Of a DNA stretch of 64,000 bases, positions 523-51,187 are shown piece after piece (position 1 is the stretch's first letter; each line of letters opens with the position of its first letter). Source of the stretch: a virus (lineage: Duplodnaviria; Caudoviricetes); IMG/VR virus record IMGVR_UViG_3300034095_001474, positions 128,001 through 192,000 of that record. One strand, written 5' to 3'. The notes beneath the pieces are model-generated. The model was not told where the DNA came from, searched no databases, and saw only the letters and a list, made by a program, of their open reading frames with translations. Both the position numbers and the translations under genes were made by a program.

Positions 523-1236
523 TTAAGCTAATCTAAGTGGTCTTAAATAATCTCTAAGAAATGCGTTGACTGGACCACCAATCTTTTCTTCCCAATGTTT
601 ATAGTTAGAAGCATTCTTTTCTTCCAATTGAGACAAAGCTTTCTCAGATGGTTTATGTCTACTATATGGTATTGTTTCTGGAACAAAGTCTGGATACAAC
701 GTTCTATTGAATACCCTTTCATCAACCAAGAACACAAAAGCTGTCAATTGGTCACCCAAATCTGGTTCATGGAACCCTTGCAGATATACACCAACTTCAT
801 GCATCGTATTCATATGAGTATTCAATGTGCCTAATCTTTCTGGGTTGTTGTTGGTAGTACCACCATTAAGAATGATAAAAGTTTTATCTTTGTCAGCCCA
901 TTTTTTATAGATTGCGTTATGTGGATTAATATCTTCAACAGTTCTACCATAATCAACAACAGCATGTCCAAATTGGATACCTTGTTGAATTGGAGACATA
1001 TTGTAAGGTACAAGACCATACATTCTATATTCCAAATACATTTCAGTTTTACGTGGCATTGAATTAGTTTTTACACGACATAACTCAATACGTCTGTAGA
1101 ATTCTTGTACATCAATTTTCTCTTCATAATAAGAGTCAGTATAAAACGCCCAATCAGTTTCCCATGATGACATATCGATTATTCTCATGTTGGCATCTAA
1201 ACACCAATCATATCCAGTTTTAAGTATTTTTTCCAT
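523..1236 (-). CDS. Pth2-fold (peptidyl-tRNA hydrolase-like) protein with an N-terminal extension
   Basis: QQGIQFGHAV...W...KTFIILNGG...FHEPDLGDQLTA follows the Q..HA / W / EPD...TA pattern of phage Pth2-like proteins. Confidence 0.55.
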   Translation of the reverse strand: MEKILKTGYDWCLDANMRIIDMSSWETDWAFYTDSYYEEKIDVQEFYRRIELCRVKTNSMPRKTEMYLEYRMYGLVPYNMSPIQQGIQFGHAVVDYGRTVEDINPHNAIYKKWADKDKTFIILNGGTTNNNPERLGTLNTHMNTMHEVGVYLQGFHEPDLGDQLTAFVFLVDERVFNRTLYPDFVPETIPYSRHKPSEKALSQLEEKNASNYKHWEEKIGGPVNAFLRDYLRPLRLA

Positions 1237-4335: not shown

Positions 4336-4797
4336 TTAAAAATTAAAAGTTATACTAGGAGTAACATAATCAACACCATCCCAGTTACTAAATGAAACAC
4401 CATATCCTAGTTTCTTATGTGTATAAGAAACACCAACACCATATTCAATAAAATTATGATTAGCGTTAAAGTAACCACCATAACCTAATATGATATTTCC
4501 ATATACTTTACCAATTGGAAAAGATGGAGATACTTTGAACTCATAGAAATAGTTACTCAATACATCATCATTTCTGAATATACCATCCAAACTACCACGA
4601 CCCAATACGATTGCTACCGCAACATCATGTTTAACCAAACCAAATTCTAACGAACTATATGAACCAGTGTTGAAGTCTGTGTTGTTTGATAAGGATAATC
4701 CCCATGAAACATACTTATTTACACTACATTTTGTTGAATCTTGTGCGAAAGTGCCGATAGCCCACATACACATTACTAATACTAATACTTTTTTCAT
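4336..4797 (-). CDS. Exported, probable outer-membrane beta-barrel protein
   Basis: Signal peptide (MKKVLVLVMCMWAIGTFA), alternating beta-strand pattern and C-terminal aromatic ITFNF. Confidence 0.5.
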   Translation of the reverse strand: MKKVLVLVMCMWAIGTFAQDSTKCSVNKYVSWGLSLSNNTDFNTGSYSSLEFGLVKHDVAVAIVLGRGSLDGIFRNDDVLSNYFYEFKVSPSFPIGKVYGNIILGYGGYFNANHNFIEYGVGVSYTHKKLGYGVSFSNWDGVDYVTPSITFNF

Positions 4798-15295: not shown

Positions 15296-15368
15296 TGCTC
15301 CCAGAGAATTACGATATCCCGACTTCCGCATTATGAGTGCGACACTCTGACCTCTGAGTTATGAGAGC
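15296..15368 (-). tRNA. tRNA with CAT anticodon (Ile2 or Met), non-canonical T-loop
   Basis: TCGCA CT-CAT-AA TGCGG arm; T-loop is ATCGTAA rather than TTCGAAT. Confidence 0.75.
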
Positions 15369-15999: not shown

Positions 16000-16080
16000 T
16001 TGGGGTAATGGGATTTGAACCCACATTTGCAATAACCAGTTACGAATATACACGTTATCAGCGTGCCTCGATATACCCCA
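16000..16080 (-). tRNA. Atypical tRNA-Ile(GAT)-like RNA with no D arm and a long extra arm
   Basis: TGGGGTA/TACCCCA acceptor; GCACG CT-GAT-AA CGTGT anticodon arm; GTGGG TTCAAAT CCCAT T arm. Only 7 nt lie between acceptor and anticodon stems, and there is a 25-nt variable region. Confidence 0.6.
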
Positions 16081-19091: not shown

Positions 19092-19535
19092 TTAAAAAAT
19101 CTCTGCTGTTATATAAGTAGTTGTAGTTTCAAAAAGTATTTCTCTTCGCTTTAACCAGTCCCCTATATTGTTAAGTGTTTTTAATTGTATACCCCAAATA
19201 TAATCAACTTGAAGTGTCTTTGGGTACTCTTTTAATTTGTTTCCCCAACCTTGCCCTCTGATTTCTTTATCAACAACCAACAACACACCTTCAATACCTT
19301 TTAACCCATCATATTTTTCGTTTGACCAGAATGAATATAATTGATTATTACCCAAAAGATACAACCCTTTTATTTTATCTTCGTCATCCAATATGATTGC
19401 TGATATATCCCAATTGGTTTCCTCTTCTATAATTGTAAAAAAATATTTTTTGTAGATAACATGTTTAAAATATTGAAAAGACCATTGCATGGCTTCTAAT
19501 CTCATTTCTTGTGGAATTCCGTATCTAATGTTCAT
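19092..19535 (-). CDS. GNAT-like acetyltransferase
   Basis: LLVVDKEIRGQGWGNKL acetyl-CoA binding motif. Confidence 0.6.
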   Translation of the reverse strand: MNIRYGIPQEMRLEAMQWSFQYFKHVIYKKYFFTIIEEETNWDISAIILDDEDKIKGLYLLGNNQLYSFWSNEKYDGLKGIEGVLLVVDKEIRGQGWGNKLKEYPKTLQVDYIWGIQLKTLNNIGDWLKRREILFETTTTYITAEIF

Positions 19536-20019
19536 AACCAGTAATTTCAAAAAATTGATAATCTCTTACTTTCCAAATTGAATCTAATTGTTGTATTGAA
19601 TATTTTATCTCACCCAACCATGGGTCTAAAACATTAAAAACATTTTCATCATACCCATTAACAATTATCCAGTGAGGAACACCTTTTGTTATTGTTCTAA
19701 GCATTGATACATTTCCACTATCTATGATTGTTCTTAGTAAATCATATGGGTGTGGCGATGATATGTATTCAATATAATTAAAATTTAATTTTTCCATACC
19801 TTTTTCCATTCTATCTGGTGGTGTACCTACAATCCAATCAGTACCACAAAAATGTGCGATATCTCTTATATCGTACTTCATTTCTATAAAACCATCAGAA
19901 TCTTTACACGTTCTGTAAATTATATTGTCTTTGTTCACCAAATAAAACCACACCATATAAATACATGTTGGTCCACATGTATTCCCAGTAGGTTGATAGA
20001 AATGTTTAATAGTTGTCAT
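19525..20019 (-). CDS. Peptidase C39-like cysteine protease
   Basis: YQPTGNTCGPTC (Q/C), PHWIIV (H), VLDPW (D). Confidence 0.75.
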   Translation of the reverse strand: MTTIKHFYQPTGNTCGPTCIYMVWFYLVNKDNIIYRTCKDSDGFIEMKYDIRDIAHFCGTDWIVGTPPDRMEKGMEKLNFNYIEYISSPHPYDLLRTIIDSGNVSMLRTITKGVPHWIIVNGYDENVFNVLDPWLGEIKYSIQQLDSIWKVRDYQFFEITGYEH

Positions 20020-20383
20020 TGAAGTCTTCGTCATAATAAGGTGAATCATCTTCATCGTCTTCTTCCTCATCAAAGTCATCATCTTCCTCACCAACGACAT
20101 TTTCCAATGTATCAAACCCTATAAAAACTCCAAATTCATCATTGAATAGTTTTTTAAATGTTTTTGCTTCATCATTTGTGATTTCATTAAAATCAATCTT
20201 AGATAATAAATCTTCACCACTAGAAAACTCCAACTCATCTTCACCCATATTGTGTGTAAATGGCCATGTGATGCTCAACGCTAATTCTTCGTATTCTTCG
20301 ACTTCTCTTTCTGTCATTACGATAAATCCGTTCACTTCAATCTCATCGATTGTGTCATTAAAAATTGCTAAAAATTTTGCCAT
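20006..20383 (-). CDS. Hypothetical acidic protein
   Basis: 125 aa with an Asp/Glu-rich tail. Confidence 0.6.
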   Translation of the reverse strand: MAKFLAIFNDTIDEIEVNGFIVMTEREVEEYEELALSITWPFTHNMGEDELEFSSGEDLLSKIDFNEITNDEAKTFKKLFNDEFGVFIGFDTLENVVGEEDDDFDEEEDDEDDSPYYDEDFNDNY

Positions 20384-22088: not shown

Positions 22089-22508
22089 TTAAATTTCTGG
22101 TTTGTCAACATAATTTACAGATATTTTTTTAAGTTCAATGATTTTATTCATATATTCAACATTTTTCACAGCATCTGTTGTTAAATTACCACGTAAATGA
22201 CTAAAGAATATATTGATAGCTTTGAAATGTTTGATTGAAACAGCTTCATCATTATGGTATATACTTTTAAAAAAGAAATAGTCTTTCCATGTTCTTTTTA
22301 AGTCATCACTACCATATCTAAACACTTTACGTACTGTTGATTCAGTAGTGTTATCACTTTTTATAGTTATTTTAGTAACGTATAATTCACCATCAACGTC
22401 AAATGGTATTATTTTGAATAATTCACTTTTTTTATTTTTGAATAAGTGTAATTCTGATTTAGTTAAATAATTTTTAACTTCTAATTGTTTTTCTTCTATA
22501 GTTTTCAT
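22089..22508 (-). CDS. Hypothetical protein
   Basis: 139-aa ORF downstream of the amber minigene. Confidence 0.55.
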   Translation of the reverse strand: MKTIEEKQLEVKNYLTKSELHLFKNKKSELFKIIPFDVDGELYVTKITIKSDNTTESTVRKVFRYGSDDLKRTWKDYFFFKSIYHNDEAVSIKHFKAINIFFSHLRGNLTTDAVKNVEYMNKIIELKKISVNYVDKPEI

Positions 22509-22591
22509 AATGTCTATGTTTTTAAATTTATTTTATAATTTTCGTAGTACTTGGACACGATGTCCTAGTAAATGTCCTAGTTAAAATAAAT

Positions 22592-22618
22592 TTAAGGAGG
22601 TGCTTTAATCTAATTCAT
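22592..22618 (-). other. Minigene ATG-AAT-TAG-ATT-AAA-GCA-CCT-CCT-TAA (M-N-amber-I-K-A-P-P)
   Basis: Read directly from the sequence; begins 11 nt after the stop codon of the Pth2-like gene. Confidence 0.6.
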
Positions 22619-22629
22619 AATCTATAGTT

Positions 22630-22974
22630 TTAGTTATTGTTATTTTTACCCAATAGAGGACACGAACTAGTAATTTTTTTACTAGCATCAGATGGTTCAA
22701 AAGCTATTGCGGTAATTTCGTTATTGATGTCTGGCTCTCGGAATATAGTATATTTAATTCCTCTGATTGCAGCTTTCTCTGAGAGTTTATATAACTCTTC
22801 CTCATTTGCTACTGTTAATAATGCCAAATAATTTGATTTTGTTTGCCATTCTGACGCTTCTTTAGGATGAGCGTGCTGAAAATCAATGGCAGCATGTGCT
22901 GATTGCACTGCTTGTGTTGGTAATGATAAGTCACGTCTTGTGACAACTCTTAATTTTGAAATCTAATTTTTCAT
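22630..22974 (-). CDS. Pth2-like peptidyl-tRNA hydrolase with an in-frame TAG at codon 4
   Basis: ATG AAA AAT TAG ATT TCA ... gives MKN*ISKLRVVTRRDLSLPTQAVQSAHA...W...L..V.....L......FREPDINNEITAIA. The conserved first strand lies upstream of the annotated GTG start at 22908. Confidence 0.75.
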
Positions 22975-23024
22975 TTTCTTTTTTATATAAATATATCACT
23001 TTTTTTAAAAAGGTAAACCTTTTG

Positions 23025-23095
23025 TGGTCTTAGAGGGAATCGAACCCTCACTATCGGTTTTAGAGACCGTTACGCTGCCGTTACATCATAAGACC
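23025..23095 (-). tRNA. Amber-suppressor tRNA (anticodon CTA)
   Basis: GGTCTTA/TAAGACC acceptor with A73; ACGGT CT-CTA-AA ACCGA arm; GAGGG TTCGATT CCCTC T arm. Confidence 0.9.
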
Positions 23096-23107
23096 AAATC
23101 TATAGTG

Positions 23108-23138
23108 CAAATATACTAAAGATTTTTTAATTTGTCAA
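23108..23138 (-). promoter_or_regulatory. Bacteroidota-type promoter of the tRNA-CUA gene
   Basis: TTG-N20-TATATTTG. Confidence 0.72.
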
Positions 23139-25924: not shown

Positions 25925-26303
25925 TGGTGGAGTATTGGGGAGTCGAACCCCAGTGTTGAATATTCTTCAATGCTTTCTACATGTTTATCTAGTTTCTAAT
26001 CCTAGCAAAGTTGTGCTACGTTATTTATACCGATGGAGGTGCAGCGACCATCGTTGCTAATTTTTACAACTAAGAAATGTTGGTTCTTGGTGGATTACCA
26101 CTATCGGTGGACTTTACCACCATTTGCAATATTAGGCTACTGCAAGCTCTCCGTTAGAAACGAATGTCGCTTCATCTAGGAAATTTTCTGATACGATAAA
26201 ATCGTTGTCAATTCAAATTTTAATAGACAGATTTAAGTGCTTCCAATCTAGCACTACATGCTTACTACCTACGACTATATTCAGTCAATACCATTAATAC
26301 CCC
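25925..26303 (-). ncRNA. ssrA: tmRNA; tag reading frame 26209-26132 encodes (A)DNDFIVSENFLDEATFVSNGELAVA
   Basis: 5' GGGGTATTAATGGTATTGAC and 3' GGGGTTCGACTCCCC-AATACTCC-ACCA; G3:U alanine identity pair; TGAATT precedes the resume codon; 25-codon ORF ending in TAA. Confidence 0.93.
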
Positions 26304-26418: not shown

Positions 26419-27144
26419 TTATTTTTTAGCTTTAACAATTTTATTTGTTATAATACCATCGATAATACCATAAGCTTTAGCTTCATCAGCATTCAACCAC
26501 ATATCACGATTTGTGTCTTCCAATACTTGTGCTGGGTCTTTATCAGTATATTCACCTAATAATCTGAACAACTCAGTATTGTATTTTTCACCTTCAGCAA
26601 TAGAAACACGAATATCTTGTAAGTTACCTTGTGCACCAGTTGATACTTGATGTAACATTACTCTACTATGAGCAAGACTATAACGTTTCCCTTTTGTACC
26701 AGCACCCAATAAGATACTTCCCATACTTGCTGCCATACCAGTGTTGATTGTAACTAAATCAGATGAGATGTAGTTCATAACGTCAACGATTGATAGACCG
26801 CTTTTAACGCTTCCTCCTGGACTATCGACATGCAGTGTGATGTCTTTTACTTCTAAGTTATCCAAGAACATTAGCTGTGCTTGTACAACTGTACTCATTC
26901 TGTCGTTAACTGGACCAGCTAACCAGATAATTCTATCCATCATCAAACGTGAGAAGATATCCATCTGTGTTACACGTAATTCTCTTTCTTCAAGAATATA
27001 TGGTGTTAATGATGAAGAAGGAACCATAAGTGAAGCTTGCGACCCATAAAGTTTTTCTTGCATTTGTTCCCATTGGTAATATTCCATTGAGGAAACTCCC
27101 ATATGCTTAATAGCATAGTCTCTAAATTCGTTATTTAAATCCAT
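26419..27144 (-). CDS. clpP: ATP-dependent Clp protease proteolytic subunit
   Basis: MDIFSRLMMDRIIWL, DSPGGSV, MAASMGS (Ser), RVMLHQ (His), NRDMWL (Asp). Confidence 0.96.
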   Translation of the reverse strand: MDLNNEFRDYAIKHMGVSSMEYYQWEQMQEKLYGSQASLMVPSSSLTPYILEERELRVTQMDIFSRLMMDRIIWLAGPVNDRMSTVVQAQLMFLDNLEVKDITLHVDSPGGSVKSGLSIVDVMNYISSDLVTINTGMAASMGSILLGAGTKGKRYSLAHSRVMLHQVSTGAQGNLQDIRVSIAEGEKYNTELFRLLGEYTDKDPAQVLEDTNRDMWLNADEAKAYGIIDGIITNKIVKAKK

Positions 27145-41034: not shown

Positions 41035-41080
41035 CTTTAATTGATTTTATTATAAATATCTTAGTTTTTAGTAAAGTTTA

Positions 41081-42718
41081 CTACTTATTATTTTTTGATT
41101 CAATTATTCTTTTAACTGCATCCATTGATAAACCAGTCTTTTTAGCAATTGTTTTGTAAATTTTGTTTTCATCTAAAGAAGGTGCACTTACATTTCCTTT
41201 TGTTTTCTCAACACTAACTACACCATCAATAGCACCAGAACTACAACCAGAACCAGCTGGTTTATTGTTTAAATCAACACAGTCGTTAAATTTAACGAAT
41301 CCACCATTGTTTAATTGTGTTTCTTTGAAAGCATTTGGTTTTTTAGCTAATCCCTCAAAAACTACTGGTACATTTGTAACTATCGGCATTTCTTTTTTAA
41401 TTGGTTTAGCACTTAATTTAGTAGTATAATCAAATCCACGTCCACCAGTATTCGTAGCACCACCACCAAGTGACATTTCATCAATACCCTTATCGAACAA
41501 TCTGTATTGTCCAACTGGTTCTTTAACTGGTTCTTTTATTGGAACTATTTTTGATTTTAATCTATCTATTGTTGATTGGTCTGTTGATTGGTCTGCTTTT
41601 TGAGTTGCGACATCATTTGCCAAATCACGTGCATCAAATCTAGCAGTATCTTGGTCACGTGAGGTTTTTTGTGTGTCGTATAAAGCTTTAGCAGTTGTTT
41701 GTGATAAACCTTGACCCATTTTTCTTTGAATGAATGCTTCTTCATCTTCACCATGCATTTCATTCAATGGTTCTTCATTAAACTTCATTTTTCGTAAAAA
41801 TGCAAGAAAATCTATATTTTCTTCTTGATTAGGGTCATATTTAATACTTAAAACCCAATTTTTTAAATCTTCATCAAATTTATTGATGTTCATTCCATCA
41901 TGCCAACCTTTGATACCTTCACCTACACTTAATTCACCTATATTTTTATTAACATAATTTTTAATAGCTTCGTTTGTTCTTTCGTAATCACCATATTCAT
42001 AGTCAATATCATTATCAGTTTCATCACCAACTGGTTCTTGTTGTAATTCACCACCAGTTATTTCTTTATTAAAAATATCATCTATGAACGGATGATAATA
42101 AAAAGAATAGTATTCACCATCAGAACCTTCTAAAATAGCAATTTCTTCATTAAATACAACAACAGCAAAACTTAATTGTTGTTGTCCTTCTTCTTCATCT
42201 AATTCACCAGTAACTTCACTATCTTGTTCACCACCACTAATCATTTGTGATAATTCATTTTCGATTGTTTGTTTAGCTTCTTCAGCTGAACCTAAATCTC
42301 TAGATATACTATATTTACCATCTTTTTTAATGATAAGTCCTTTTGATTCCAATTCACCATAAATTTCATCATAACTTAAACCATTTTCAGACCAAAATTC
42401 TGAATAACTATAAAGATTTTTTATTAGCTCTAATGTTTCTTGTTTTAAATCACCATTACTAGTAGATTCATGAATTGGAGGTTTAGGTACTAGTGTTTTA
42501 CCGAATTTACTTAGTTTAGACGTAGGCACCCCTTTAACTGTTACATTTTTTTTAATATTAAAATCAGTAGAGACCTCACCCAAATTTTTAATTTCTTTAC
42601 CAGCAAATCCTTTTTTAAAAGTATTATCTACTATATTTTTTTTAAGTTTTGGAAAACCTTCCTTTAAAAGATTTGTAATTTTGTCAAATTGTTCTTTGGT
42701 GATTTTTATTTTTTTCAT
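41081..42718 (-). CDS. Acidic protein, probable head-internal/core protein
   Basis: Many (I/L)xE motifs; ends in tandem TAG TAA. Confidence 0.55.
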   Translation of the reverse strand: MKKIKITKEQFDKITNLLKEGFPKLKKNIVDNTFKKGFAGKEIKNLGEVSTDFNIKKNVTVKGVPTSKLSKFGKTLVPKPPIHESTSNGDLKQETLELIKNLYSYSEFWSENGLSYDEIYGELESKGLIIKKDGKYSISRDLGSAEEAKQTIENELSQMISGGEQDSEVTGELDEEEGQQQLSFAVVVFNEEIAILEGSDGEYYSFYYHPFIDDIFNKEITGGELQQEPVGDETDNDIDYEYGDYERTNEAIKNYVNKNIGELSVGEGIKGWHDGMNINKFDEDLKNWVLSIKYDPNQEENIDFLAFLRKMKFNEEPLNEMHGEDEEAFIQRKMGQGLSQTTAKALYDTQKTSRDQDTARFDARDLANDVATQKADQSTDQSTIDRLKSKIVPIKEPVKEPVGQYRLFDKGIDEMSLGGGATNTGGRGFDYTTKLSAKPIKKEMPIVTNVPVVFEGLAKKPNAFKETQLNNGGFVKFNDCVDLNNKPAGSGCSSGAIDGVVSVEKTKGNVSAPSLDENKIYKTIAKKTGLSMDAVKRIIESKNNK

Positions 42719-48408: not shown

Positions 48409-50787
48409 TTATTTCATAGAAATTTTTGAGAGGTTGTTACTTCCTTTAATAACAGTAACAACATTATCACCCCAATCACGAACTAAGTCATTGTGTGTGA
48501 TGAAGAAAACTATCTCATACATATCTTTTATTTTATCAAAAAGAACTTTCAATTTCTCTAAATTTTCTGGTGCTACCTTACCTAATACTTCATCAAAAGT
48601 GATAAAATTAGGCATTGGCAGCGTAGATAATTTACCCAACACAGCTCTCAACGCTAAACTAGCCGCTGTTTTCTCTAAACCAGAACCAGATTTTAACAAT
48701 TTAGATACTTCATCTTTAACCAATAGAAACTGAACATCATTCTTATCATTAATAAATATCTCGACATCGAAATCTACAACATCATCTAACAATCTTTGTA
48801 CTTCAGAATTTATAATTGGCAACACAGAACGCAGTACCAATTTACTAACACCTTTCTTTCCGACCAATTCAATATATATTTTGAAAATTTTATCAATCTC
48901 TTCTTCTTTTTTTATTGTTTCGATTAATTTGGTTTTTACCTCAATACTTGTTTTATGGTTTTTGATATCAGTTTGAACACGTTCTATCTTTGCTATTGCA
49001 TCATCTTTAGAATATTCCAATACTGAAATGTCAGTTTTAACTCTGGATACTTCAATATCAATCTTTTTATTTAACTCAATAGCGTCTAAATTAAGTTTGT
49101 ATTTCTTTAAATCATTACGTTTTGAAACTATATCGTTTTTCAATGAACCAATTTGAACTTCTAATCTATCTCTGTTTAACTCATGTTTATTTTTATCATC
49201 AATAAGCACTTTAGTTTCATTAAGAACATCCAATTCAGTATTTATGGTTTTAATTGCATTAGATAATTTGGTAGACTCTTTTTTTAATTTTTCAATATCT
49301 AACTCATGTTTAGCAATGTGTTCAGTATTATCAACATCATCTAATTTTCTGTTGCATGATTGACAGATACCTCCAGCAACCAAACCTTCAACAACCAATT
49401 CCAATCTTTCTACTTCAGCATTCTTTACAGCTTTTGCCGATGTTTGTGTTGATAAATCTTTTGTCAATGCATGATGACGGTCTTCATCAAATGATACAAC
49501 ACCAATTTTATTTATTTTTAAAACCAACTCATCAACACTAGTTTTAAAACCAACACCTTTTTCAATCAAATTTGAAATATCAATTTCTAAATTAGAAGGG
49601 TTTAATTCAGAGATAGTTACATCGATTTTTTCTTTGTTATTTATCAATTTATCATTCTCTTCATTCAAACTAGTAATTTCTAATTTAGCTTTTTCTAATT
49701 TATCATTAAGACTAGTTTCTAATTCAACAGCTAAGATACCTTTTTCTTTATGGTCATCAATTTCTTCAGTCAATGTAATAACATCATAATCGTTAGATTT
49801 TTTCTTTCTAGCAAATTCATTGTACATTGTTCTAGCAGCAGCTTCTTTCAATTCTAGTATCTCCAACCCAATAAGTCTTGTCAAAACTTTTCCAGATTCA
49901 CTAGTAGTCAATCCTATTAAATCATCCAAGTTCTTCTCTGTAGCTAATACAAGCATCTCAAAATCTTTTTCGCTACCAATAGTTTCTTTTAATCTTTTAG
50001 TCGTTCTAGTAGCATCTTCTTCATTTAATTGCTCTTCTTCACCATCTGGTAATAACTTGTAATAGTTTACTCTATTTGTTACAGTCCAACCACCACCTTT
50101 TTTAGCGGTACGTTTCATTTTACGTTCAATGATTGTTTCTTCATTCTCAATATCAATCATACCACGTACAGTCAATTCATTCTTATCACTATATGTGTTG
50201 AATATCTGCTCGTTTGTATCAGTTTTTGTTGTACTACCATGCAACAAGAATTTAACAGCATCAATTGTAAGTGTTGTTTTACCACCTTGATTAGCTGGAA
50301 TAGAATTTACAACAGTCAAACCTCTCAATTTACTCAAAGGTAAATAATTATCTTCACCAAAAGATAAAAAATTATTTACCATAAGCCATTTAAGATTCCA
50401 ACTTCTATGTTGTGTTTCATTCAAGTCAACGTTTAATTCACCGTTTACTTTGTCATCTAAAGCAATGATACGATTAAAGTCAATCGTTTTACCATCTCTA
50501 TCAATTAACTCCTTCATAAGAGCTCTTTGATAGTTCACGTCCATGATGTTCTCAATACCAGCACCAGTGATTTCAATTACATCACCATTGGCAGTTGTTC
50601 TTACTGGTCTATAAACAACATTGATATTGCTCTTGTTTACACCATACTTGTTAGCAAAATAGTTTCTTACTCTATTTTTAGCTTCTTTGCTATAGTTCTC
50701 TGGACGGTCATCCCAATAAACTTTAATCTTTGCATACGGTGATATTGCTTTAATATCCATAACTTCTACTTGTTCATTATTCTCCAT
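48409..50787 (-). CDS. SMC-like recombination exonuclease ATPase (gp46/SbcC-like)
   Basis: NFLSFG, NQGGKTT Walker A, CQSC zinc hook, SGSGLEK signature, TFDE Walker B, FFITH. Confidence 0.9.
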   Translation of the reverse strand: MENNEQVEVMDIKAISPYAKIKVYWDDRPENYSKEAKNRVRNYFANKYGVNKSNINVVYRPVRTTANGDVIEITGAGIENIMDVNYQRALMKELIDRDGKTIDFNRIIALDDKVNGELNVDLNETQHRSWNLKWLMVNNFLSFGEDNYLPLSKLRGLTVVNSIPANQGGKTTLTIDAVKFLLHGSTTKTDTNEQIFNTYSDKNELTVRGMIDIENEETIIERKMKRTAKKGGGWTVTNRVNYYKLLPDGEEEQLNEEDATRTTKRLKETIGSEKDFEMLVLATEKNLDDLIGLTTSESGKVLTRLIGLEILELKEAAARTMYNEFARKKKSNDYDVITLTEEIDDHKEKGILAVELETSLNDKLEKAKLEITSLNEENDKLINNKEKIDVTISELNPSNLEIDISNLIEKGVGFKTSVDELVLKINKIGVVSFDEDRHHALTKDLSTQTSAKAVKNAEVERLELVVEGLVAGGICQSCNRKLDDVDNTEHIAKHELDIEKLKKESTKLSNAIKTINTELDVLNETKVLIDDKNKHELNRDRLEVQIGSLKNDIVSKRNDLKKYKLNLDAIELNKKIDIEVSRVKTDISVLEYSKDDAIAKIERVQTDIKNHKTSIEVKTKLIETIKKEEEIDKIFKIYIELVGKKGVSKLVLRSVLPIINSEVQRLLDDVVDFDVEIFINDKNDVQFLLVKDEVSKLLKSGSGLEKTAASLALRAVLGKLSTLPMPNFITFDEVLGKVAPENLEKLKVLFDKIKDMYEIVFFITHNDLVRDWGDNVVTVIKGSNNLSKISMK

Positions 50788-51187
50788 AAATATCTCTTTT
50801 ATTTTTCTTTTGTTCAATTTCTAATTTCTGTAAAGTATCATTCCATTCTTTTTGGAAGTGTTCAGCATCTTTTTTGTAAGTATTTCGTTCATCTTCCAAT
50901 TTTGTTATCTTTTCAGATAATTTTTTCACTTGTTTATCATCAGTGATATACACTTCTTTTTCAGTAGGAACTTCAACTTTAACTTCTACAATTTTCTCTA
51001 CGATTTTTTCAACGATTTTTTCTACTTCAATTTTCTTTTCTATTACTTGAGGTGTTGCCCCAAACTTTTCAACAGTAAAACCTTGTTTAAGTATTTTAAT
51101 TGTGAACTCATCAATATTCGTGATATTGTTTATCCTACAATAATCCCAAATTTCATCTTTTAAGTCTTTAGATATCTCCATCTTCAA
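50777..51187 (-). CDS. Hypothetical protein
   Basis: 136 aa with a VEKI repeat and a coiled coil. Confidence 0.6.
   Translation of the reverse strand: MKMEISKDLKDEIWDYCRINNITNIDEFTIKILKQGFTVEKFGATPQVIEKKIEVEKIVEKIVEKIVEVKVEVPTEKEVYITDDKQVKKLSEKITKLEDERNTYKKDAEHFQKEWNDTLQKLEIEQKKNKRDIYGE

What the first reader, a model, noticed from the sequence alone, without database searches (positions are those of the whole stretch)
22630..23138. Amber-suppressor tRNA gating a Pth2-like gene with an in-frame TAG
Seen in sequence: a well-formed tRNA-CUA with its own host-type promoter lies 50 nt upstream of ATG-AAA-AAT-TAG-ATT-TCA-AAA-TTA-AGA-GTT. Past the TAG the frame encodes the conserved N-terminal strand (KLRVVTRRDL...QAVQSAHA) of a Pth2-like protein. 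The genome otherwise uses code 11 (long ORFs, mostly TAA stops where checked, TAG-TAA tandem at 41078-41083), so this is gene-specific recoding, not genome-wide reassignment. Inference: full-length Pth is made only when the suppressor outcompetes RF1, making a switch or sensor for termination capacity. The amino acid charged is unknown (G1:C72, A73, short variable loop; no Pyl-like features apart from the loop).
Basis: partly seen in the sequence, partly recalled or inferred. Interest (0 to 1): 0.9.

Follow-up and report, generated by a model that had tools for sequence, protein, structure and literature searches.

The report
Amber-gated phage Pth2 gene with suppressor tRNA
A lake-water phage has a small tRNA-recycling-type enzyme gene whose fourth codon is the stop codon TAG, placed right behind a phage tRNA that reads TAG; the same pairing is kept in dozens of distant large phages, including lab-grown ones, so the enzyme is probably made only when that tRNA overrides the stop.

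Summary
A cloverleaf tRNA with anticodon CUA (23024-23095, minus strand) lies 50 nt upstream of ATG-AAA-AAT-TAG-ATT, which opens a 114-codon PTH2-family gene (22630-22974). Four independent lake-metagenome assemblies carry the TAG unchanged.

The TAG is not damage. Of 59 homologue clusters from IMG/VR, 56 keep one in-frame TAG 3-9 codons before the first conserved strand. Of these 56:
- 53 have an in-frame ATG within 5 codons upstream, and none has one in the other two frames.
- All have a purine after the TAG.
- Only 1 has a canonical start after it.

A CUA tRNA lies within 5 kb in about 62 of 80 loci. The two TAG-less homologues have none nearby. Cultured phages share the layout (Mycobacterium phage Bxz1 and relatives, Tenacibaculum phage pT24).

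The window otherwise reads as the standard code: 91% coding, and TAG ends 5 of 93 ORFs.

Best reading: translation of the hydrolase is gated by the phage's own amber suppressor. Its purpose is inferred, and the inserted amino acid is unknown.

A second conserved amber-containing mini-ORF (M-N-TAG-I-K-A-P-P-stop) follows the gene.

I found no published description. This scan has noted the same cassette before on other DNA, in at least 25 genomes.

The parts
23108..23138 (-). Promoter-like motif in front of the tRNA. It reads as TTGACA (23138-23133), 17 nt, TATATT (23115-23110). It also reads as TTG, 20 nt, TATATTTG (23115-23108), the Bacteroidota-type form seen before other genes of this window.
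   Evidence: Read from the sequence. TAnnTTTG-like motifs and a lack of Shine-Dalgarno sites at other gene starts. Function not tested.
23024..23095 (-). Amber-suppressor-type tRNA. The anticodon CUA is at 23063-23061 and the anticodon loop is CUCUAAA. It has G1:C72, discriminator A and a short variable loop, and no encoded CCA.
   Evidence: ARAGORN, Rfam tRNA 60.1 bits, cloverleaf fold. The same tRNA sequence is found in L015 and L016, and near copies in L014 and L017.
22988..23017 (-). Promoter-like motif between the tRNA and the gene: TTTACC (23017-23012), 16 nt, TATATT(TA) (22995-22988). Equivalent TTGACT/TTTACN + 16-17 nt + TATATT/TATAAT motifs occur in relatives.
   Evidence: Sequence and the upstream sequences of L004-L008. 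Inference only.
22630..22974 (-). PTH2-family (peptidyl-tRNA hydrolase 2-like) gene of 114 codons, with an in-frame TAG as codon 4.
   Evidence: Translation. Pfam PF01981 E 7.9e-10. Profile against PDB Pth2 chains E 5.5e-10. AlphaFold model pLDDT 91.5 with the PTH2 fold.
22963..22965 (-). The gating codon TAG, followed by ATT (a purine at +4). It is preceded by the three codons ATG AAA AAT.
   Evidence: Sequence. Conserved position and context in 56 of 59 homologue clusters. Unchanged in independent assemblies.
22592..22618 (-). Second amber-containing mini-ORF, 11 nt after the Pth2 stop: ATG AAT TAG ATT AAA GCA CCT CCT TAA (M-N-TAG-I-K-A-P-P-stop).
   Evidence: Sequence. It is conserved in L014, L015 and L017, with a frame-keeping 3-nt insertion in L015. 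The first Pro codon is CCT, CCC, CCA or CCG in the four sequences. Similar mini-ORFs follow the gene in L021, L040, L049 and L051 and L099.

Best explanation
The phage carries a two-part cassette: its own UAG-reading tRNA, and directly behind it a PTH2-type hydrolase gene that opens with a 3-codon stub (ATG AAA AAT) followed by UAG.

Ribosomes start at the ATG. If release factor 1 wins at codon 4, only a tripeptide is made. If the charged CUA tRNA wins, the full 114-residue enzyme is made. Enzyme output therefore depends on, and scales with, suppressor activity relative to termination at UAG.

Placing the UAG in the unstructured first 7 residues makes a failed attempt cheap and makes the inserted residue unimportant. 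That fits a gate rather than a coding need.

Shown by comparison of sequences: the TAG, its in-frame ATG, its purine context and its linkage to a CUA tRNA are all conserved.

Inferred: the tRNA is expressed, charged and decodes this UAG. Also inferred is the purpose, which I take to be matching the supply of a peptidyl-tRNA-recycling enzyme to the level of stop-codon readthrough or to termination capacity in the infected cell.
For: 1. Conservation of the TAG.
- All 13 first homologues have exactly one in-frame TAG.
- Of 59 clusters at 90% identity, 56 have a TAG 3-9 codons before the conserved K-L-x-V-V strand.
- An in-frame ATG lies within 5 codons upstream in 53 of 56, against 0 and 0 in the other two frames.

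2. The stop is always TAG, although TAA is about six times commoner as a stop in the same loci (919 TAA, 158 TAG). This points to the CUA tRNA rather than to termination as such.

3. The base after the TAG is a purine in 56 of 56 clusters. From established E. coli work, this is the context that favours amber suppression.

4. Linkage to the tRNA.
- A tRNA-CUA lies within 5 kb on the same strand in about 62 of 80 loci.
- One more, missed by ARAGORN, sits about 45 nt upstream in L053's genome.
- One genome has it about 110 kb away.
- 79 of the 301 tRNAs in these loci are CUA.
- The two TAG-less homologues (L076, L089) have no CUA tRNA in their loci.

5. A start after the TAG is not available. Only 1 of 56 clusters has ATG, GTG or TTG between the TAG and the strand, and 19 have no near-cognate either. 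In the window the next canonical start (GTG at 22908) would delete strand 1 with invariant R13 and D15.

6. L013 has only an internal TAG, at codon 34. L090 and LR756501 have a second one at the same place. These lie inside the fold and must be decoded.

7. The ATG has the same A-rich, Shine-Dalgarno-free upstream context as the other genes of the window.

8. Codons after the TAG of the neighbouring mini-ORF vary synonymously, so the frame after a TAG is under protein-level selection.

9. The TAG is real in four independent assemblies.
Against: - Nothing here is experimental. There are no RNA runs for this phage, no proteomics, and no evidence that the tRNA is charged or with what.
- In 37 of 56 clusters a near-cognate codon (mostly ATT) directly follows the TAG.
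- In the mycobacteriophages a GTG with a well-spaced GAAGG or GGAGG follows the TAG and is the annotated start. Independent initiation after the TAG therefore cannot be excluded for those members.
- TAG still ends 5 of 93 ORFs in the window, so an efficient suppressor would extend some phage proteins by 1-20 residues.
- About 18 of 80 loci show no CUA tRNA within 5 kb.
- Only 64 kb of this genome was available.
Confidence: 0.75

Rival explanations
1. Stop-restart leader. ATG-x-TAG is a tiny upstream ORF that ends at TAG, and the enzyme is started independently or by re-initiation at the next codon (ATT here, GTG in mycobacteriophages). The CUA tRNA is linked for another reason, or only modulates this.
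For: The codon after the TAG is ATT, ATA or GTN in most clusters. In Bxz1, Cane17, Phabba and ScoobyDoobyDoo a GTG follows the TAG with GAAGG or GGAGG 7 nt upstream and is the curated start. Residues 1-7 are disordered and dispensable for the fold.
Against: - 19 of 56 clusters have no start-like codon between the TAG and the conserved strand. Examples are AAC-AAA-AAA-CTT in L011 and GGC or ACT after the TAG in others.
- The mini-ORF is in frame in 53 of 56 clusters and never in the other frames, which a restart does not need.
- TAG is used exclusively over the much commoner TAA.
- Internal TAGs occur at codon 34 in L013, L090 and LR756501.
- TAG-less homologues lack the tRNA.
Confidence: 0.12
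2. The phage is a TAG-recoded (code 15) phage, and this gene is just one of many with in-frame TAG. The others, such as late structural and lysis genes, would lie outside the 64-kb window.
For: Phage suppressor tRNAs are typical of TAG-recoded phages (preprint 10.1101/2021.08.26.457843, read). Public gene callers translated many homologues with TAG=Q. Only part of the genome was seen. Lak phages, which are recoded according to that preprint, have distant homologues.
Against: - The window is 91% coding under code 11 with 5 TAG stops, and code 15 does not raise the density.
- No other gene in 64 kb has this layout.
- TAG ends 158 of 1338 ORFs in 80 related loci.
- None of 10 candidate ORFs with internal TAG has a Pfam domain spanning the TAG.
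- The gene itself uses CAA and CAG for Gln and has a single TAG.
- Bxz1-type phages and pT24 are annotated throughout with the standard code.
Confidence: 0.08
3. Pseudogene or assembly error: the TAG is a recent nonsense mutation or a miscalled base.
For: A single stop near the start is what a fresh nonsense mutation would look like.
Against: The sequence is identical in four independent assemblies. The TAG is kept at the same place across homologues down to 38-41% identity while the neighbouring codons change.
Confidence: 0.01

Closest known systems
Stop-codon recoding in phages with phage-encoded suppressor tRNAs (TAG to Gln, code 15; crAss-like, Lak and other gut phages; preprint 10.1101/2021.08.26.457843; PMC9523058)
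   Same: A phage-encoded CUA tRNA and an in-frame TAG in a phage gene. That work proposes that expression of TAG-containing genes waits for the suppressor.
   Different: Here one codon in one small gene is involved, not dozens of late genes. TAG still serves as a stop elsewhere. The TAG sits at codons 2-7 in a disordered N-terminus. The tRNA is physically tied to its target. The preprint does not mention a hydrolase (0 occurrences).
prfB (release factor 2) autoregulation through an early in-frame UGA (established knowledge, not tested here)
   Same: An early in-frame stop codon in a gene of the translation-termination and recycling sphere, where the outcome at that codon sets how much protein is made and so reports termination capacity.
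   Different: prfB is bypassed by +1 frameshifting and senses its own product. Here the bypass would be a dedicated tRNA competing with host RF1, and the product is a hydrolase, not a release factor.
Archaeal/eukaryotic peptidyl-tRNA hydrolase 2 (Pfam PF01981; PDB 2zv3, 3erj, 1wn2, 1q7s Bit1, 1xty)
   Same: Same fold and length (TM 0.72-0.79). Shared motifs: K-x-V-V-x-R-x-D-L, Q-x-x-H-A and T-A-(V/I)-A.
   Different: 20-29% identity. It lacks the G-x-G-K-G-K loop. It has the phage-specific invariant F-R-E-P-D-x-x-N-x-x-T in place of D-A-G-x-T-x. Activity and substrate are untested.
Lambda bar minigenes and peptidyl-tRNA drop-off (established knowledge, not tested here)
   Same: A 2-5 codon ORF ended by a stop is the kind of message that sheds short peptidyl-tRNAs, which are the substrate of peptidyl-tRNA hydrolases.
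   Different: Here the minigene is the in-frame head of the hydrolase gene itself. The codon before the TAG is not conserved, so no particular tRNA would be targeted.
Orphan suppressor tRNAs of standard-code jumbo phages (for example Xanthomonas phage XacN1, PMC5852040)
   Same: CUA tRNAs in a phage that otherwise uses the standard code. The authors read through 18 amber stops and found no target.
   Different: The target proposed here is an N-terminal TAG, which C-terminal readthrough searches and code-11 gene callers miss. I did not check whether XacN1 itself has it.

Membership tests
PTH2 peptidyl-tRNA hydrolase family (PF01981) | Sequence match above the curated Pfam threshold | tested here: met
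   39.4 bits against a cut-off of 23, E 7.9e-10, residues 7-98. A family profile hits PDB Pth2 chains at E 5.5e-10.
PTH2 peptidyl-tRNA hydrolase family (PF01981) | Pth2 alpha/beta fold | tested here: met
   The model has pLDDT 91.5. Foldseek's top 13 hits (and 15 of the first 15 except 2gax) are Pth2/Bit1 structures, TM 0.59-0.79.
PTH2 peptidyl-tRNA hydrolase family (PF01981) | Catalytic residues and hydrolysis of peptidyl-tRNA | tested here: inconclusive
   K7, R13, D15, H27, E80, D82 and T88 are invariant in the phage family. E80 aligns with the Asp of the D-A-G motif in 2zv3.
Amber suppressor tRNA | Canonical cloverleaf with anticodon CUA | tested here: met
   The anticodon loop CUCUAAA is shared by most of the 63 distinct CUA tRNAs linked to homologues.
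Amber suppressor tRNA | Expressed, aminoacylated, and decodes UAG in vivo | not testable with these tools
   No RNA runs hold the stretch. The tRNAs are too diverse to assign an isoacceptor origin.
Genome-wide TAG reassignment (code 15 phage) | Many genes interrupted only by TAG, and coding density rising under code 15 | tested here: not met
   Coding density is 0.914 under code 11 and 0.912 under code 15. One gene has the layout. No Pfam domain spans a TAG in 10 candidates from related loci. This holds only for the 64 kb and the 10-kb loci seen.
Genome-wide TAG reassignment (code 15 phage) | TAG no longer used as a terminator | tested here: not met
   5 of 93 window ORFs and 158 of 1338 ORFs in related loci end in TAG.
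Pyrrolysine system (tRNA-Pyl) | tRNA-Pyl architecture (6-bp anticodon stem, 3-nt variable loop; from established knowledge) | tested here: not met
   The fold shows a 4-5 bp anticodon stem and a 5-nt variable region. ARAGORN's 'Pyl' label follows from the anticodon alone.
Pyrrolysine system (tRNA-Pyl) | PylS and PylBCD genes present | not tested
   No targeted search was made. None of the annotated neighbours is of this kind.

The most novel reading that the evidence does not exclude
The cassette is a dedicated translational circuit, not just a gated gene. The phage suppressor tRNA controls a small 'amber regulon' made of the Pth2-like enzyme and the following mini-ORF, whose post-TAG part ends in a Pro-Pro or R-G-P-T type motif resembling ribosome-arrest peptides. 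Together they read out the balance between suppressor and release factor 1 in the infected cell, and set the level of phage translation-rescue functions accordingly. This would also be the natural purpose of the 'orphan' suppressor tRNAs of standard-code jumbo phages.
Probability: 0.3. Interest if true: 0.9.

Novelty: new variant of a known kind. Interest (0 to 1): 0.8.

Why it matters
Suppressor tRNAs turn up in many large phages that otherwise use the standard code, and their targets have been unknown. The XacN1 authors, for example, looked and found none (PMC5852040).

A conserved TAG at the very start of a linked hydrolase gene gives these tRNAs a concrete natural target. It also shows a gene-specific use of stop-codon readthrough in viruses of bacteria.

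Standard gene callers miss it. They truncate the gene (the 92-93 aa calls) or start it after the TAG, as in more than 200 annotated mycobacteriophages.

The layout occurs in cultured phages of non-pathogenic laboratory hosts (Bxz1-type phages on M. smegmatis mc2 155; pT24 on Tenacibaculum), so the idea is directly testable.

It may also be an evolutionary stepping stone between standard-code phages and fully TAG-recoded ones.

Tried and rejected
- DNA-level search of cultured phages with 2.5 kb around the locus: no match.
- Exact-match search for the window's own contig in IMG/VR: none. No whole genome is held, so late genes of this phage could not be examined.
- Simple code-11 against code-15 ORF comparison on 10-kb loci: uninformative by itself, because tRNA-rich loci have low coding density and code 15 always lengthens ORFs. 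I followed it up with Pfam on 10 candidates, and no domain spans a TAG.
- Assigning the amino acid by nearest non-CUA tRNA: the best matches scatter over 15 amino acids, so no call is possible.
- Aligned TAG-less homologues have Thr at the position. This speaks against a need for a particular residue but does not identify the one inserted.
- Folding the RNA downstream of the mini-ORF: only a modest hairpin (z -2.2) and no terminator.
- Scan of 185,579 species genomes: only two hits, both MAG contigs that look like phage contigs, so no cellular members of this close subfamily were seen here.
- Four literature searches found no paper linking a suppressor tRNA with a TAG-containing Pth gene. The library is incomplete, so this is absence of evidence only.
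- RNA evidence: no RNA run holds the stretch.

Full report
**What is there.** The window is AT-rich (about 30% GC) phage-like DNA from lake water. Nearly all genes are on the minus strand. It carries 12 tRNA genes by ARAGORN (Rfam adds two), a tmRNA, ClpP, an FKBP-type isomerase and a CCA-adding-type nucleotidyltransferase.

At 23024-23095 (-) there is a tRNA with anticodon CUA. ARAGORN labels it 'Pyl' by anticodon only, Rfam scores it 60.1 bits as tRNA, and it folds as a cloverleaf. It is preceded by TTGACA-17 nt-TATATT (23138-23110). The same stretch also fits the TTG-N20-TAnnTTTG pattern seen before other genes of this window.

Fifty nucleotides downstream lies ATG AAA AAT TAG ATT, and the frame then runs open for 110 more codons to TAA at 22630-22632. 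The product matches Pfam PTH2. A family profile hits solved Pth2 chains at E 5.5e-10. The AlphaFold model (pLDDT 91.5) superposes on archaeal Pth2 and human Bit1 at TM 0.72-0.79. Residues 1-7 are coil and strand 1 begins at residue 8. Contigs from four other lake-water runs from four studies are identical across the TAG.

**Is TAG a general sense codon here?** Under code 11 the window gives 93 ORFs at 91% coding density, with 85 TAA, 5 TAG and 3 TGA stops. Reading TAG as sense does not raise the density. The five TAG-terminated ORFs meet the next in-frame stop after 1 to 20 codons, so readthrough adds 0-19 residues. A scan for ATG + 1-5 codons + TAG + at least 60 open codons finds this gene. 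One of the two other hits (48409-50841) is the TAG-terminated end of the upstream gene; the other (19525-20139) was not examined. Within the 64 kb seen, the recoding is therefore gene-specific. No whole genome is held, so late genes of this phage could not be checked.

**Relatives.** A first scan of IMG/VR gave 13 loci at 38-91% identity. Every one has exactly one in-frame TAG, at codon 3-6 in twelve and at codon 34 in L013. A CUA tRNA is directly upstream in L001-L008, about 1.4 kb downstream in L011 and L012, and 13 nt downstream in L013.

A profile-based scan gave 80 further loci, reduced to 59 clusters at 90% identity. The results:
- 56 clusters have a TAG 3-9 codons before the conserved K-L-x-V-V strand.
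- The base after the TAG is A (39) or G (17), and never a pyrimidine.
- The following codon is ATT in 34.
- An in-frame ATG lies within 5 codons upstream in 53 of 56, against none in either other frame.
- A canonical start between the TAG and the strand exists in 1 of 56, and 19 have not even a near-cognate codon there.
- The two clear exceptions, L076 and L089, read M-A-T-I-K with Thr where the others have TAG, and have no CUA tRNA in their loci.
- About 62 of 80 loci have a CUA tRNA within 5 kb, and all but one are on the gene's strand.
- One more CUA tRNA, missed by ARAGORN and Rfam because of an odd D region, lies about 45 nt upstream of the gene in L053's genome. L088's complete genome has one about 110 kb away.
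- 79 of the 301 tRNAs in these loci carry CUA.
- In the same loci, TAA is about six times commoner than TAG as a stop (919 against 158), yet the early stop is always TAG.

Public protein databases show the same thing indirectly. Full-length entries read M-x-Q-I, and one checked at DNA level translates only 'with TAG=Q'. Code-11 callers give 92-93-residue stubs that start inside helix 1. A profile search finds 1,551 clusters at 50% identity with E up to 1e-10, so the family is large.

**Cultured and named phages.**
- Tenacibaculum phage pT24 has ATG AAA TAG ATA, an annotated 'tRNA-Sup' 2.6 kb upstream, and a CDS annotated from a later start.
- Mycobacterium phages Bxz1 and Cane17 have TTGACA-17 nt-TACTGT, then 6 nt, then ATG TAG GTG.
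- Phabba and ScoobyDoobyDoo have GTG TAG GTG.
- In all four mycobacteriophages a CUA tRNA lies 130-300 nt downstream, annotated 'tRNA-OTHER' or 'tRNA-Pyl(cta)' — or, in Phabba, tRNA-Arg(tct) at 4462-4532 where ARAGORN reads CUA — and the curated start is the GTG after the TAG.
- 206 Mycobacterium phage records hold a homologue.
- The huge metagenomic phages LR756500, LR756501 (735 kb) and LR745206 also have the early TAG. LR756501 has a second TAG inside the fold and two CUA tRNAs 2 kb downstream.
- Homologues without a TAG show no CUA tRNA nearby: Aeromonas phiWae14, Stenotrophomonas RAS14 and Xanthomonas Xoo-sp13, the last two fused to an N-terminal domain.

**Mechanism.** The most economical reading is that ribosomes start at the ATG, which has the same A-rich, Shine-Dalgarno-free context as the other genes. 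They meet UAG at codon 4, where release factor 1 and the phage's CUA tRNA compete. Only readthrough gives the enzyme.

Four observations favour decoding over a simple stop: the exclusive use of TAG, the strict frame, the purine at +4 (known from E. coli genetics to favour amber suppression), and the internal TAGs in some members. The position in a disordered, length-variable N-terminus, together with Thr in the TAG-less members, suggests that the residue inserted does not matter. The codon would then act as a gate that wastes only a 1-6-residue peptide when closed.

What the gate is for is inference. My best guess is that it ties the supply of a peptidyl-tRNA-recycling enzyme to the level of suppression, or inversely to RF1 capacity. 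The phage also carries a tmRNA, ClpP and a second, TAG-free PTH2-like paralogue (523-1236).

The CUA tRNAs are very diverse: 63 distinct sequences, all with short variable loops, and most with a CUCUAAA anticodon loop. No isoacceptor origin can be assigned.

**A second gated element.** Eleven nucleotides after the gene's stop lies ATG AAT TAG ATT AAA GCA CCT CCT TAA (22618-22592). It is conserved in L014, L015 and L017, with a frame-preserving 3-nt insertion in L015 (M-M-TAG-I-Y-R-A-P-P). The first Pro codon reads CCT, CCC, CCA and CCG in the four sequences while its neighbours are invariant. That is the signature of selection on the peptide encoded after the TAG. Comparable mini-ORFs follow the gene in more distant loci and end in V-P-P, K-P-P, R-G-P-T-G or R-A-P-T. 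The endings recall ribosome-arrest motifs of the RAPP/RAGP type. That resemblance is from memory and was not tested.

**Rivals.**
- A stop-restart leader remains possible for members with ATT or GTG after the TAG, above all the mycobacteriophages with a well-spaced Shine-Dalgarno site. It does not explain the family-wide features listed above.
- Genome-wide code 15 finds no support in the window or in the 10-kb loci.
- Error or pseudogene is excluded.

**Comparison with what is known.** The closest published system is stop-codon recoding in gut phages with suppressor tRNAs. That work does not mention a hydrolase. The nearest analogy in logic is prfB. The XacN1 paper reports CUA tRNAs without identifiable targets. 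Four literature searches found no description of a TAG-gated Pth gene.

This scan has reported the same cassette before on other DNA: 30 notes in at least 25 genomes, including phages, Acidobacteria and Actinobacteria. Those notes agree with what I tested independently here.

**Verdict.** This is a new variant of a known kind: gene-specific amber gating by a linked phage suppressor tRNA. Interest is 0.8.

Noticed in passing
window 22592-22618 (-): An amber-containing mini-ORF, M-N-TAG-I-K-A-P-P-stop, lies 11 nt after the Pth2 stop. It is conserved in relatives, with synonymous changes in the first Pro codon and a frame-keeping insertion. Similar mini-ORFs ending in PP, RGPT or RAPT follow the gene in distant loci. 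It may be an arrest-type leader gated by the same tRNA.
   Followed up: partly
window 22535-22580 (-): A direct repeat TAGGACA-N5-TAGGACA overlaps a 10-bp imperfect hairpin (ACTAGGACA-TCG-TGTCCAAGT), between the mini-ORF and the next gene (22089-22508, no Pfam match). It is conserved in L014, is not followed by a T-run, and folds only modestly (z -2.2).
   Followed up: partly
window 523-1236 (-): A second, longer (237 aa) paralogue with a PTH2-like domain (family profile E 4e-7) and no in-frame TAG. It resembles the N-terminally fused, TAG-less homologues of Xanthomonas Xoo-sp13 and Stenotrophomonas RAS14.
   Followed up: partly
window, gene starts throughout: Only 5 of 61 long minus-strand ORFs have a Shine-Dalgarno-like 4-mer. 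Upstream regions are A-rich, with peaks near -3 and -11/-12, and TAnnTTTG-like motifs sit close to many starts. This points to a Bacteroidota-type host.
   Followed up: partly
window 15296-15368 and 16000-16080 (-): Rfam's tRNA model finds two tRNA-like genes (46.9 and 40.3 bits) that ARAGORN does not list.
   Followed up: no
L110 1462-1545 (genome of L053, about 45 nt upstream of its Pth2-like gene): A tRNA-like gene with a CUCUAAA anticodon loop, a normal T arm and acceptor stem, but an oversized D region. Both ARAGORN and Rfam miss it, so linked CUA tRNAs are under-counted by standard tools.
   Followed up: partly
L097, L102-L104 (Mycobacterium phages Bxz1, Phabba, ScoobyDoobyDoo, Cane17): The -10-like hexamer ends 6-7 nt before the ATG or GTG that precedes the TAG. 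The mRNA may therefore be leaderless and begin with start-TAG-GTG. Current annotations start the gene at the GTG after the TAG and label the CUA tRNA 'OTHER', 'Pyl' or, in Phabba, tRNA-Arg(tct).
   Followed up: partly
L115, L116 (genome contigs): The only two hits in the species-genome collection are MAG contigs labelled Methanobacterium and Pacearchaeota. The latter is 425,361 nt, the same length as an IMG/VR viral contig (L051), so these are probably phage contigs binned into archaeal MAGs.
   Followed up: no
window 25925-26303 (-) and 26419-27144 (-): A phage tmRNA (Rfam 60.1 bits) lies directly downstream of a ClpP-family protease gene. L054 also has a tmRNA near its Pth2-like gene.
   Followed up: no
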